Source of the DNA: Alphaproteobacteria bacterium
GTDB lineage: Bacteria; Pseudomonadota; Alphaproteobacteria; Rhizobiales; Xanthobacteraceae
Direction of reading: 5' to 3'
NCBI GenBank assembly: GCA_016869215.1
Contig: VGEP01000011.1
Span: forward strand, 68,629-132,628
Length of the DNA stretch: 64,000 bases
Shown here piece by piece: positions 21,352 through 24,380 of the stretch (the stretch's first letter is position 1; the number at the start of each line of letters is the position of its first letter). The position numbers were made by a program, and so were the translations under genes. The notes beneath the pieces are model-generated. The model worked only from the letters and a program-made list of their open reading frames with translations. It did not search any database and was not told the origin of the DNA.

Positions 21352-21798
21352 ATGAGCATGGACGCAGCGGCGAAATTCGCCGTGGAGGTTCTCGCCAGCG
21401 AGGCGCTCCAGGCCAAGGTGGCGGCGGCGACGAACGGCAAGCAGGGACGGTCCGTTGCAGAGGCCGTGGCAGCCATCGGCCAGGCCGAGGGCTTCAGCTT
21501 CAGCGCAGACGAGGCGGCCGCGATCGGCCGGCAGGCAAGCCTGCTCCTCAAGCAGCAGTCAGGTGCGGAGTTGAGCGACGCCGAGCTGGCGCAGGTCGCG
21601 GGCGGCGGCCTCCTCGGCGACGTCCAGCAGGGCTTCGTGAGCGCATTTAGCCGGCTCGACAAGCCGGTCGGGGGCATTGCCTCCGCCACACGGGACATCG
21701 GCTTCGCGTTCGTCGGCGCTGCCGGCAATGTTGCCAGCCCCGGACGCGGGATCGTGTCCGCCGCCAACCAGGTCGCGAGCTTCTTCAGCAGCTGGTGA
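21352..21798 (+). CDS. Nif11-like leader peptide RiPP/bacteriocin precursor (85-aa leader + 63-aa core)
   Basis: RBS AGGAG; leader KF...LASEALQAKV...AIGQAEGFSFSADE...ELSDAELAQVAGG double-glycine motif (GG ends at nt 21606). Confidence 0.85.
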   Translation: MSMDAAAKFAVEVLASEALQAKVAAATNGKQGRSVAEAVAAIGQAEGFSFSADEAAAIGRQASLLLKQQSGAELSDAELAQVAGGGLLGDVQQGFVSAFSRLDKPVGGIASATRDIGFAFVGAAGNVASPGRGIVSAANQVASFFSSW

Positions 21799-21931
21799 AC
21801 AGCCGCGCGGCGCAGTGCCGACGCGCAGAAGGCGCCCTTCCAGGTCCGCTGCGCTGCTTTCGTCCCGCGACCCGGCGGATTGCAGACCTGTGCCCGCCGA
21901 TGACATCATGCGCGCAACGGAGGAAGCATCC

Positions 21932-22615
21932 ATGCGCATCGTCGATCTCAGCCGCGAGCTCTATCACCGCACGCCGTCGTATCCCGGCCAGCCGCCGATC
22001 ATCCACGGCGTCTGGAAGACCCACGAGGAGGCGCGGGCGGAGAACAAGGGGGTCCACGGCAACAGCGTGATGTTCTTCTCCATGCCCGACCACGGCGGCA
22101 CACACATCGATGCGCCGCGGCATTTCGGCGAGCGCGGCACGCCGATCGACCAGTATCCGCTGGAGAACTGCATCGTGCCGGGCATCTGTCTCGACCTGCG
22201 CCACATCGCGCCCAAGGCCGAGATTACGCCCGCCGATCTGGAAGAGGCGGTGAAGAAGTGCGGCAGCCCGGTGCCGAAGAAGGGCACGGTGCTTCTTTGC
22301 ACCGGCCATCACGAGCGCACCTTCCCGCGTAAGGAGTACGCGACCGACAATTCCGGCGTGAACGTCGCCGCGACCGAATGGCTCGCCAGGCAGGGCGTCG
22401 TGCACTTCGGCATCGACTCGATGCGGCCCGGCCCCGAGGGCATGGTCAACGTGCTGGTGCACAAGGCGTGCCTCGAGCTCGACATCACGCACATCGAGAG
22501 CCTGTGCAACCTCGAGACGCTGATCGGGCAGGGGCCGTTCGAGTTCATCGGCCTGCCGATGAAGTGGAAGGGTGGCACCGGCTCGCCGATCCGCGCGGTG
22601 GCGGTGTTTCGGTGA
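21932..22615 (+). CDS. Cyclase family / kynurenine formamidase-like metal hydrolase
   Basis: HGGTHIDAPRHF (HxGTHxD), GIDS, ESLCNL, GGTGSPIRAVA. Confidence 0.92.
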   Translation: MRIVDLSRELYHRTPSYPGQPPIIHGVWKTHEEARAENKGVHGNSVMFFSMPDHGGTHIDAPRHFGERGTPIDQYPLENCIVPGICLDLRHIAPKAEITPADLEEAVKKCGSPVPKKGTVLLCTGHHERTFPRKEYATDNSGVNVAATEWLARQGVVHFGIDSMRPGPEGMVNVLVHKACLELDITHIESLCNLETLIGQGPFEFIGLPMKWKGGTGSPIRAVAVFR

Positions 22616-22700
22616 ATGATCGGCGCGAAGCCAGATTCTCCTGCGGTTTCCGTGCGATAAAAAACTTATCCCCGCCCTCCAAAGCGGCCTTATCTTCATT

Positions 22701-23074
22701 GCGTCCCGCTCATCCGAGGGCGTCGTCGCGAGACGTTTCGATGGCGGAGCGGGATGCGGCTCCTGCTGGCGAGGCTCGTAACCTCGTTACCGGGCGGCCC
22801 GGGGCTCCGCCCGGAGGTTAGACTGGAACCTCCTGCCAGGAGCTGGCTGACGGGGCGGCAATGCCCCGCAAAGCGCGGCCCGGGACCGAAAAATGCCGCC
22901 GTGGAGCGCCGGGAGGCGCGCGTGTTCCGATCGCAAGGAACACGCACACGTCTCCCACGAGGCGTGGAACTGAACTTAGGGCGCCGCTCGGCGCTCCACC
23001 CCTCGGGCTTTGCGCCGGGGGAAAGGGAAGACGGGCACCGCGCCGCCCGGTCAAAGTGCGCGGACGAGAGCGCA
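22701..23074. other. Densely structured intergenic element (candidate ncRNA or non-autonomous mobile repeat), family E
   Basis: About ten identifiable stems including two multibranch domains; no credible ORF; no match by eye to tRNA, tmRNA, RNase P, SRP or common riboswitches. Confidence 0.6.
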
Positions 23075-23420
23075 TGGCTGGAAAAAACGCGCGCCGCTCC
23101 CCGACACTTTGTACAGGCGAAATTCGCGAGATTTATCCACACCGGACCGGCCAAAACCCATATCGGGCCTGAAAAATGTGACGTTGATGCAACACCGTGG
23201 GATTCTTCTGCATAAAGGGGTCAAAACGCCTAAAAAGGCAGCAAGTGTCTAGCGTTTCGACTTGTCCCGCGCGCATGCCGCGTGGTCCATTTTGGCCATA
23301 ATAATTCAAGTGGTGTGGGGTCTTTCGGGTGAAGGTTGCAGTCGTGTTCTCGGGTTCGAGGCCGTCCGCGAACGTCAGCCCCAAGTTTCCGCACCGAGCC
23401 ATAACGGGAAGGGGCTGACT

Positions 23421-24380
23421 ATGAAGAAGATCGCTCTCGCGGCGTGCGCCGCGTTTGCCATGACGGTGCCGGCGGTTGCCGCCGACATGCCGACGAAGGC
23501 CAAGCGGATGGCCGCACCGCCGCCGCCGGCCTGGGACATCGCGTTCGGCTCGGCGATCGCCAGCGACTATGTGTTCCGCGGCATCACGCAGTCGAACGGC
23601 CACGCGTCGGCCTCGGCGTATTTCGAGCCGCGCTACAAGATCAATCCGAACCTCGAGCTTTACGCTGGCATCGCGGGCGCGAGCATCAGCTTCCCGAACC
23701 GTCCGTCCGCGGAAGTGGATTTCTACGGCGGCATCCGGCCGACCTTCGGCAAGCTCGCCCTCGACCTCGGCTTTATCTACTACTGGTATCCGGGCGGCGA
23801 GTGCTTCCACGGTACGGCGGCGTTCTGCGCCCGCGGCGTTGCGCTGCCCAACACCAACGTGATCAAGGCGGACACCAGCTTCTGGGAGTTCTACGCCAAG
23901 GCCACCTACGCGATCACCGATGCGTTCTCGGTCGGGGCCGGCGTCGCCTATTCGGATTCGGTGCTGAACTCCGGCGCCGACGGCGTCTACTTCTCCGGCA
24001 ACGCCAAGTACACGTTCCCGGCGTTTGCGAACGGCGTGCAGGCCTACGCCTCGGGTGAAGTCGGCCACTGGTCGATCGGCACCTCCGACTCGTTCTACAG
24101 CATCGCCGGAACGCCCGGTTCGCCCGGCATCAACTACAAGGACTACACCCACTGGAACGTCGGCTTCGGCTGGACCTGGAAGGTGTTCACGGTCGATCTG
24201 CGCTACCACGACACCGACCTGAGCAAGGGCGACTGCAACGCCTTCACCAGCGATCACACAGCGAGCGGCACGACCCACGTTACCGCGATCAACGTGGGCG
24301 GCGTTGGCTCCAACTGGTGCAGCGGCCGTTTCGTCGCCAAGCTCTCGGCCGATCTCACGGTCAACACCAACCTGAAGTAA
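23421..24380 (+). CDS. TorF-family putative outer-membrane porin
   Basis: Signal peptide then ADMPTKA; SDYVFRGITQS, EVDFYGGIRP, LDLGFIYYWYPG, DLRYHDTD. Confidence 0.88.
   Translation: MKKIALAACAAFAMTVPAVAADMPTKAKRMAAPPPPAWDIAFGSAIASDYVFRGITQSNGHASASAYFEPRYKINPNLELYAGIAGASISFPNRPSAEVDFYGGIRPTFGKLALDLGFIYYWYPGGECFHGTAAFCARGVALPNTNVIKADTSFWEFYAKATYAITDAFSVGAGVAYSDSVLNSGADGVYFSGNAKYTFPAFANGVQAYASGEVGHWSIGTSDSFYSIAGTPGSPGINYKDYTHWNVGFGWTWKVFTVDLRYHDTDLSKGDCNAFTSDHTASGTTHVTAINVGGVGSNWCSGRFVAKLSADLTVNTNLK

What the first reader, a model, noticed from the sequence alone, without database searches (positions are those of the whole stretch)
22701..23074. ~370-nt element composed almost entirely of nested hairpins: candidate large structured RNA or non-autonomous element
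Stems read directly: 22701-11/22747-57 (one G-U); a multibranch domain closed by GCTCCTG..CAGGAGC (22759-22843) holding CGAGG/CCTCG, CCGGGCGG/CCGCCCGG and GGAGGTT/AACCTCC; CGGGGC/GCCCCG (22851-68); a second domain closed by TGGAGCGCCG/CGGCGCTCCA (22902-11/22989-98) holding GCGTGTTCC/GGAACACGC and CACGTCTC/GAGGCGTG; then three more hairpins (22999-23021, 23032-49, 23057-74). There is no credible ORF and no match by eye to known housekeeping RNAs. Multibranch architecture with G-U pairs favours an RNA-level fold over a simple DNA palindrome. Similar-looking starts (..GAGGGCG..GCGGGATGCGG) recur in Bradyrhizobium-like genomes as I recall, which I cannot verify here.
Basis: partly seen in the sequence, partly recalled or inferred. 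Interest (0 to 1): 0.65.

Follow-up and report, generated by a model that had tools for sequence, protein, structure and literature searches.

The report
Multicopy large structured RNA gene family
The hairpin-rich stretch is one of about 16 copies in this soil bacterium of an uncatalogued, roughly 420-nucleotide, intricately folded non-coding RNA gene with its own promoter, a family spread through Xanthobacteraceae whose function is still unknown.

Summary
The hairpins are in the sequence as described. They fold better than shuffled controls (z = -4.3), and there is no Rfam 15 match. The stretch belongs to a family. This 5.15-Mb genome holds 11 long copies and 5 short ones. A covariance model finds the family in 109 of 201 Xanthobacteraceae genomes (39 of 62 genera), usually in 5 to at least 11 copies. 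It also finds it in a few other Rhizobiales families, and in almost no other Alphaproteobacteria.

Covariation is strong. In P1 plus domain A, 94.9% of cells are paired, and 32 of 51 pairs show compensatory changes. Pairing is strand-specific: 205 G.U cells against 30 A.C.

Every copy has a promoter-like motif just upstream. The unit is longer than reported, about 22657-23120. It runs promoter, P1, multibranch domain A, domain B, a hairpin, a purine-rich linker and an H-type pseudoknot. Two stems read by eye are not the conserved ones; long-range pairs replace them.

No neighbouring gene is shared. TnpB/IscB, IS110 transposase and reverse transcriptase are absent from this genome. I found no inverted ends. 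Copies are present or absent at orthologous sites, and they resemble their genome-mates.

Best reading: an independently transcribed structured RNA gene family that spreads within genomes.

The parts
22657..22696 (+). Class II promoter-like region. It holds an A-tract, a -35-like CTTATC (22665-70), a small GC hairpin CCGC/GCGG (22672-75/22684-87) and a -10-like CTTATCT (22689-95). The inferred transcription start is near 22700.
   Evidence: The same motif stands in front of about 10 family copies in this genome. A sigma-70-like variant (CTTGAC...TATAAT) sits at the same distance from P1 in other copies. The simple sigma-70 scan finds nothing here. No transcript data were available.
22701..22757 (+). 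P1, a bipartite 5' hairpin. The outer stem is 22703-11/22746-55 and the inner stem 22722-25/22742-45. It carries the conserved motifs GAGGGCG and GAGRCGU.
   Evidence: In helix 1, 8 of 9 pairs have changes on both sides. In helix 2, 4 of 4 do.
22756..22899 (+). Domain A, a multibranch domain closed by GCGGC/GCCGC (22756-60/22895-99). Its helices:
- 22762-72/22784-94
- long-range 22796-22810/22875-22887
- 22813-18/22828-33
- the GCCAG-GAG-CUGGC hairpin 22835-47
- a variable hairpin 22851-68
   Evidence: RNAalifold and pair counts on 47 copies. Pair 22809-22876 reads G-C in 30 copies and A-U in 17, with none broken. The five short copies replace this domain with a small hairpin on the same closing stem.
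22901..22999 (+). Domain B. A 12-bp closing stem (22901-12/22988-99) encloses hairpins 22920-28/22937-45 and 22947-54/22959-66.
   Evidence: The closing stem is paired in 97.5% of cells. It has 76 cells with changes on both sides against 30 +/- 4 in shuffles. The inner hairpins come from the constrained fold and vary in sequence between copies.
22999..23032 (+). Hairpin CCCCUCGG/CCGGGGG (22999-23021), followed by a purine-rich linker GGGGAAAGGGAAGAC.
   Evidence: The hairpin and the GA-rich tail recur in nearly all copies with different stem sequences.
23032..23063 (+). H-type pseudoknot. Stem 1 is CGGGC/GCCCG (23032-36/23045-49). Loop bases CCGCGC (23038-43) pair with GCGCGG (23058-63) across the A-rich linker 23050-57.
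   Evidence: The same geometry appears in 44 of 83 copies against 2.05 +/- 1.4 in shuffled sequence. At least six different covarying sequence versions exist.
23064..23122 (+). 3' tail holding GAGCGCAUGGCUGG, the counterpart of the family motif GAGCGUUGGCU(GUUUGA). The 3' end is not defined.
   Evidence: The motif is seen in the listing of copies. No intrinsic terminator is found on the + strand. Homology to the element-free sites of G003 and G004 resumes near 23130.

Best explanation
The stretch is one copy of a gene family for a large structured non-coding RNA, about 420 nt in this copy.

Shown:
- The + strand carries a conserved fold of several domains: P1, an optional multibranch domain A, domain B, a hairpin, a purine-rich linker and an H-type pseudoknot.
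- The fold is kept by compensatory changes between species and between the paralogues of this one genome.

Inferred:
- Each copy is transcribed on its own from a promoter directly upstream. Here that is a CTTATC...CTTATCT type; in other copies it is a sigma-70-like CTTGAC...TATAAT.
- The RNA itself is the product. It most likely works as a scaffold or ligand for a conserved cellular partner that is not encoded next to it.
- The conserved loops and junctions are the likely contact sites: GAGGGCG and GAGRCGU in P1, the GCCAG-GAG-CUGGC hairpin, the UGA...AAAGCG junction and the GA-rich linker.
- The core function lies in P1, domain B and the pseudoknot, because domain A can be missing.

The family behaves like a mobile or duplicating gene. 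Copies appear at new intergenic sites, sit there in either orientation, and are homogenised or freshly amplified within each genome. The mechanism of spread is unknown.
For: Family and spread:
- 11 long and 5 short copies in this genome.
- 13 genomes of other Rhizobiales families in a sample of 201.
- 1 of 300 other Alphaproteobacteria.

Fold:
- 94.9% of cells paired. 32 of 51 pairs have changes on both sides. 314 such cells stand against 90 +/- 11 in shuffles and 33-46 when partners are slid.
- Domain B stem paired in 97.5% of cells.
- Pseudoknot in 44 of 83 copies against about 2 in shuffles.

Strand: 205 G.U cells against 30 A.C, p = 3e-33.

Each paralogue is constrained: among the 11 long copies of this genome 96% of cells are paired and 23 of 51 pairs show compensatory change.

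Promoter: two different promoter-like sequences stand at the same distance from P1.

Stand-alone unit:
- No enriched neighbouring ORF in 119 loci.
- Downstream genes are unrelated to one another.
- No orientation bias: 54 same against 41 opposite.

Gain and loss:
- The orthologous cyclase-porin spacer in G003 and G004 lacks the element.
- One relative has the element, with a REP-like repeat beside it, between two genes that overlap in this genome.
- Copies cluster by genome in a tree.
Against:
- The window's promoter is not a sigma-70 consensus.
- No + strand terminator was found, so the 3' end is undefined.
- No partner protein was identified.
- Sixteen copies per genome, patchy distribution and insertion between formerly overlapping genes are more typical of selfish repeats than of regulatory RNA genes.
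- Invariance of CAGGAGCTGGCTGA and AAAGCGYGGCC in loci L059-L177 is partly forced by the pattern used to collect them.
- The count among paralogues was made on an alignment fitted to the model.
Confidence: 0.55

Rival explanations
1. It is a selfish non-autonomous mobile element. The conserved fold serves the element's own propagation, for example as an RNA or single-strand intermediate recognised by an enzyme encoded elsewhere or supplied by the host. It brings no benefit to the cell.
For: - Many copies per genome and a patchy spread across genera.
- Recent bursts: copies in G014 are 88-96% identical to one another.
- Presence or absence at orthologous sites, and insertion between two genes that overlap in this genome.
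- Copies cluster by genome.
- Short direct repeats (GCGA, TTATCC) stand on both sides of the window copy.
Against: - No TnpB/IscB domain, IS110 transposase or reverse transcriptase in this genome.
- TnpB/IscB passes the cut-off in only 4 of 201 family genomes, against 109 with the RNA.
- No inverted ends or consistent target duplication were seen by eye in the G014 copies.
- No partner ORF next to any of 119 loci.
- Diverged paralogues within one genome keep the fold through compensatory changes. That means long-term selection on each copy, unlike decaying MITEs.
- The flanking TTATCC is also part of the promoter motif and of a DnaA-box-like site, so it may not be a target duplication.
- Caveat: this genome is a 123-contig assembly, and repeated IS copies may be missing from it.
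Confidence: 0.25
2. It is a DNA-level structured intergenic repeat of the REP/BIME/RIME/ERIC type. On this reading the palindromes act in DNA or passively in read-through mRNA (stability, termination, nucleoid binding), and the promoter likeness is accidental.
For: - Strictly intergenic location.
- Modular makeup, with domain A present or absent.
- Frequent company of other REP-like repeats.
- The - strand also folds better than shuffles, z = -3.59.
Against: - Strong strand asymmetry: 205 G.U against 30 A.C.
- Long-range pairs, multibranch junctions and a pseudoknot are not features of palindromic DNA repeats.
- Two distinct promoter-like sequences are kept at a fixed distance.
- No orientation bias relative to neighbouring genes, which a read-through mRNA element would be expected to show.
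Confidence: 0.1
3. It is a mobile promoter with a structured leader that drives or regulates whatever gene lies downstream, that is, a cis-acting element.
For: - The four most similar copies of this genome all lie between co-directional genes and point at the downstream gene.
- No + strand terminator is found.
- In one relative the element sits in front of a gene that was formerly translationally coupled to its upstream neighbour.
Against: - Across 95 loci the downstream gene is co-oriented in only 54 (p = 0.22). Many copies face a convergent gene.
- Downstream genes are functionally unrelated.
- A 420-nt multi-domain fold with a pseudoknot is more than a promoter needs.
Confidence: 0.07
4. 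It is the mRNA of a very small protein or a type I toxin-antitoxin locus, with a structured hok-like mRNA.
For: - Size, own promoter and multicopy nature recall hok/sok-type loci (from my own knowledge).
- A purine-rich Shine-Dalgarno-like tract lies at 23019-23032.
- A recurrent AUG/UUG-GCU...GCU-GUU-UGA mini-frame appears in several copies (read by eye).
Against: - No ORF is conserved. Copies differ by indels that are not multiples of three, including a 1-nt indel between copies 90% identical.
- The changes kept are base-pair compensations, not synonymous codon changes.
- The mini-frame is absent or out of frame in many copies, including this one.
Confidence: 0.03

Closest known systems
Large 'ornate' bacterial ncRNAs (OLE, ROOL, GOLLD, raiA)
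   Same: Several hundred nucleotides long, with multi-domain folds, junctions and pseudoknots. They are supported mainly by covariation, and no neighbouring protein explains them.
   Different: No sequence or structure match to any of them in Rfam 15. From my own knowledge, those RNAs are usually single or few per genome and often lie in prophages. This family has about 16 copies per genome, each with its own promoter. It is chromosomal, with no plasmid or phage hit, and is confined to Rhizobiales.
HEARO / IscB and TnpB omega RNAs (IS200/IS605 guide RNAs)
   Same: Structured RNAs of 150-350 nt that occur in many copies, sometimes without the adjacent protein gene. Their elements lack inverted ends and target duplications.
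   Different: No Rfam HEARO or IS605-orfB hit. No TnpB/IscB domain in this genome, and only 4 of 201 family genomes pass the cut-off. The 5' end is a covarying hairpin rather than a variable guide.
Mosaic intergenic repeats (REP/BIME of E. coli, RIME of Rhizobium, ERIC, Correia/NEMIS)
   Same: Dispersed, strictly intergenic, modular and hairpin-rich. Some carry promoters (Correia elements, from my own knowledge).
   Different: Much longer. The fold is strand-specific, with long-range pairs and a pseudoknot. I saw no inverted ends.
Multicopy 'sibling' sRNAs and protein-sequestering sRNAs (Qrr, alpha-r14/NfeR, RsmX/Y/Z, CsrB, CrcZ)
   Same: Several paralogous, independently transcribed RNA genes per genome. 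They carry conserved motifs repeated along the RNA (here RAGGCG, four times).
   Different: From my own knowledge, those families have 2-8 copies, are mostly 100-400 nt, are built of simple hairpins and end in a terminator. Here there is a multi-domain fold, no terminator was found, and the copy number is far higher.

Membership tests
Any Rfam 15 family | Covariance-model score at or above the family's gathering score | tested here: not met
   0 hits in the whole window at gathering scores. At E <= 10 in 22500-23500 only chance-level hits appear, the best 22.5 bits against a cut-off of 100. Nothing relevant on loci from other families.
IscB/TnpB omega RNA (HEARO, IS605-orfB) | Association with an IscB or TnpB nuclease gene, adjacent or at least in the same genome | tested here: not met
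   PF07282 is absent from this genome. It passes the cut-off in 4 of 201 family genomes, against 109 with the RNA. No such ORF lies beside any of 119 loci.
IS110 bridge RNA | Encoded at the end of an element that carries a DEDD (IS110) recombinase | tested here: not met
   PF01548 is absent from this genome. No adjacent ORF family. Caveat: draft assembly of 123 contigs.
Retron or group II intron-type retroelement RNA | A reverse transcriptase gene; for group II introns also a domain V/VI match | tested here: not met
   PF00078 is absent from this genome. No Rfam intron hit.
MITE (DDE-transposon derivative) | Terminal inverted repeats and a target-site duplication of fixed length | tested here: inconclusive
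   Reading the ends of near-identical G014 copies (CCGCTTGAC... and ...TGAATCTGAA) by eye, I saw no inverted ends and no shared flank duplication. The window copy is flanked by short direct GCGA/TTATCC repeats, but these are also promoter or DnaA-box-like motifs.
REP/BIME-type palindromic repeats | Short (20-40 nt) imperfect palindromes whose pairing works equally on both strands | tested here: not met
   The unit is about 420 nt with long-range pairs and a pseudoknot. G.U 205 against A.C 30.
Riboswitch or other cis-regulatory leader | Constant position upstream of, and co-oriented with, functionally related genes | tested here: not met
   Downstream genes are unrelated: a porin, serS, oxidoreductases and a hypothetical protein. 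The downstream gene is co-oriented in 54 of 95 loci.
Independently transcribed ncRNA gene | A discrete transcript with its own start and end | not testable with these tools
Only promoter-like motifs at a fixed distance from P1 support this.

The most novel reading that the evidence does not exclude
The family is a new class of large functional RNA specific to Rhizobiales: a ribonucleoprotein core, a self-assembling RNA or a ribozyme. On this reading the gene also propagates through the genome as a unit of promoter plus RNA, without any transposase of a known kind. The uniformity of the domain B stem within each genome would then reflect co-evolution with a trans-acting partner, or pairing between copies.
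Probability: 0.2. Interest if true: 0.9.

Novelty: new variant of a known kind. Interest (0 to 1): 0.72.

Why it matters
Xanthobacteraceae include abundant soil bacteria (Pseudolabrys appears in the record titles) and, from my own knowledge, nitrogen-fixing and nitrifying genera such as Bradyrhizobium and Nitrobacter. A 420-nt RNA with a multi-domain, pseudoknotted fold is kept in 5 to more than 11 copies in over half of the sampled genomes of the family, and it is absent from Rfam. That points to an unstudied piece of RNA biology.

Two outcomes are possible, and both are testable. It may be a new abundant ribonucleoprotein or regulatory RNA. It may be a new way for an RNA gene to spread without a recognisable transposase.

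The covariance model and alignments built here (R1, A1-A4) make the family testable in cultured strains.

Tried and rejected
- Rfam, at gathering scores and at E-value thresholds: nothing.
- Plasmid and phage collections by blastn: no match.
- Enrichment of neighbouring ORFs in 119 loci: none.
- Orientation bias relative to neighbours: none.
- Partner tests: TnpB/IscB, IS110 and RT are absent from this genome. TnpB/IscB is rare across the family.
- A small Bac_DnaA_C protein shares the class II promoter. Its presence is not correlated with the RNA: odds ratio 1.06, p = 0.89.
- Alternative pairing of the 3' tail (GGAGCGUUG) with the 3' strand of the domain B stem: permutation p = 0.066, and tail extraction was imperfect, so it is not claimed.
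- A 3' closing helix CAAACAA/UUGUUUG: many copies have CAAAGAA with no compensation, so I dropped it. The window-specific CAAAGUG/CACUUUG (23052-58/23105-11) may be chance.
- A target-site duplication at the window copy: the flanking TTATCC and GCGA are also promoter or DnaA-box-like motifs, so this stays unresolved.
- A column-based count of the pseudoknot on the MAFFT alignment A4 failed, because subgroups were aligned out of register. I used an alignment-free detection with a shuffle control instead.
- Literature searches found no description of such a family.

Full report
**Observation**

The region lies in an 800-nt gap. Upstream is a cyclase-like gene that ends at 22615. Downstream is a porin-like gene that starts at 23422.

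The + strand of 22690-23100 folds at -226.5 kcal/mol, against -197.3 +/- 6.9 for dinucleotide shuffles. That is z = -4.26, and no shuffle does as well. The - strand gives z = -3.59.

Rfam 15 has no match at gathering scores in the whole window. With permissive filters only chance-level hits appear.

**It is a family**

BLAST, nhmmer and a covariance model find the following in this 5.15-Mb genome:
- 11 full-length copies;
- 5 short copies, in which the multibranch domain A is replaced by a small hairpin on the same closing stem;
- at least one more divergent member.

All copies are intergenic, and their neighbouring genes are unrelated to one another.

A pattern scan of named genomes returned at least 119 loci. 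The record titles read Pseudolabrys, Pseudorhodoplanes, Undibacter and unnamed Xanthobacteraceae or Hyphomicrobiales soil MAGs.

Model R1 covers P1 plus domain A. Its hits:

| Sample | Genomes with a hit |
|---|---|
| Order Rhizobiales, 201 genomes | 13 from other families; one family strongly, with at least 11 copies |
| Other Alphaproteobacteria | 1 of 300 |

Plasmid and phage collections hold no match.

**The fold is conserved at the RNA level**

- On 47 non-redundant copies aligned by MAFFT, the RNAalifold structure of P1 plus domain A is paired in 94.9% of cells.
- 32 of its 51 pairs show changes on both sides. There are 314 such cells, against 90 +/- 11 when partners are shuffled and 33-46 when partners are slid.
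- The long-range pair 22809-22876 reads G-C in 30 copies and A-U in 17, with none broken.
- The 12-bp stem closing domain B is paired in 97.5% of cells, with 76 double-change cells against 30 +/- 4.
- Within the paired cells G.U outnumbers A.C 205 to 30 (p = 3e-33). So the + strand is the one that folds.
- Among the 11 long paralogues of this genome alone, 96% of cells are paired and 23 of 51 pairs show compensatory change. That alignment was fitted to the model, so it leans towards the structure.

One caution applies. The invariance of CAGGAGCTGGCTGA and AAAGCGYGGCC in loci L059-L177 is partly forced by the pattern used to collect them. In copies found by BLAST, that hairpin covaries instead: GCCAG/CUGGC against GCGAG/UUCGC.

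**Corrections to the stems read by eye**

- GCTCCTG/CAGGAGC is paired in only 80.8% of cells. Two of its positions are mismatched in 25 to 34 of 47 copies, and nothing compensates.
- The local hairpin CCGGGCGG/CCGCCCGG has C.A in 17 of 47 copies at 22795-22809.
- The conserved architecture closes domain A with GCGGC/GCCGC (22756-60/22895-99). It pairs 22796-22810 with 22875-22887.
Stem 1 is 23032-36/23045-49, and loop bases 23038-43 pair with 23058-63.
- That pseudoknot geometry is found in 44 of 83 copies, against 2.05 +/- 1.4 in shuffled sequence. It occurs in at least six covarying sequence versions.

**Promoter and extent**

Directly upstream of P1, nearly all copies carry one of two promoter-like sequences at the same distance.
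- Class I is sigma-70-like: CTTGAC...TATAAT.
- Class II is (A)nCTTATCCCCGC, a small hairpin, then CTTATCNTT.

The window copy has class II at 22657-22696. The simple sigma-70 scan does not call it, and no + strand terminator is found. Comparison with other copies carries the unit through the motif GAGCGCAUGGCUGG to about 23120.

**Behaviour in genomes**

- The cyclase-porin synteny is kept in two relatives, G003 and G004, with a 125-nt spacer and no element. None of 15 relatives has the element at this locus.
- In one relative the element, with a REP-like repeat beside it, lies between two genes that overlap in this genome.
- Copies within G014 are 88-96% identical to each other but about 70% identical to this genome's copies.
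- In a tree, copies cluster by genome. The copies at the tatC-serS locus of three genomes group with their genome-mates rather than with each other. That fits either gene conversion or repeated insertion.
- Reading the ends of near-identical G014 copies by eye, I saw no inverted ends and no shared flank duplication.
- The short direct GCGA and TTATCC on both sides of the window copy are ambiguous. The same motif is part of the class II promoter. It is also part of a perfect DnaA box, TTATCCACA at 23133-41, that is kept at the empty sites.

**Partners sought, none found**

- No ORF family is enriched beside the element in 119 loci.
- There is no orientation bias towards neighbouring genes.
- This genome has no TnpB/IscB domain, no IS110 transposase and no reverse transcriptase. 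The caveat is that it is a 123-contig draft.
- TnpB/IscB passes the cut-off in 4 of 201 family genomes.
- A 148-aa Bac_DnaA_C protein beside a MucR/Ros-like gene shares the class II promoter. Its presence is unrelated to that of the RNA: odds ratio 1.06.

**Interpretation**

I give 0.55 to an independently transcribed, trans-acting structured RNA gene family that spreads and is homogenised within genomes.

The main rival, at 0.25, is a selfish non-autonomous element whose fold serves its own propagation. The remaining rivals:
- A DNA-level repeat is disfavoured by the strand asymmetry, the long-range pairs and the pseudoknot.
- A cis-leader is disfavoured by the lack of orientation bias and by the unrelated downstream genes.
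- A small-protein or toxin mRNA is disfavoured by frame-breaking indels.

Literature searches found no description of this family.

Earlier notes of this scan describe multicopy RNAs of about 420-430 nt, with their own promoters, in soil bacteria. These may be the same family, but I could not check that, and I do not count them as evidence.

Noticed in passing
window 23133-23141: A perfect DnaA-box sequence, TTATCCACA, lies about 280 nt upstream of the porin gene. The same box is kept at the orthologous, element-free spacers of two relatives (L179, L193).
   Followed up: partly
G000 contig C74:1150-1676 (outside the window; locus L217): The class II promoter motif (AAAAACTTATCCCCGC...GATTAT) also stands in front of a 148-aa protein with a Bac_DnaA_C domain (PF08299, E = 1e-15). 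That gene lies just downstream of a MucR/Ros-like gene. Its presence across 201 genomes is not correlated with the RNA family.
   Followed up: yes
G000 C1:116376-116474, C16:37225-37563, C42:2566-2904, C10:71229-71503, C39:32660-32976: A short subfamily of about 340 nt. It has the same promoter, P1, domain B and pseudoknot, but domain A is replaced by a small hairpin on the same GCGGC/GCCGC stem.
   Followed up: partly
L039-L046 (G014), L036, L095: Other REP-like repeat families often sit directly beside copies of the RNA element in relatives. Examples are GTCATCGCCGGGC..., GTCATTCCGGGGCGC...CCCGGAATC and CCCGCTTAGGCGGGC.
   Followed up: no
L081:122-244 (-): The 3' motif GGCTGTTTGAAA of the family is repeated three times in tandem in this copy.
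   Followed up: no
window 23163-23246 (-): A weak, sub-threshold Rfam match to mmgR/suhB (20 bits against a gathering score of 41, E = 0.18) in the spacer before the porin gene. It is probably chance.
   Followed up: no
window 21677-22615: The mechanical ORF of 312 aa probably starts later, at MRIVDL (21932). Relatives match only that 227-aa cyclase-like part.
   Followed up: partly
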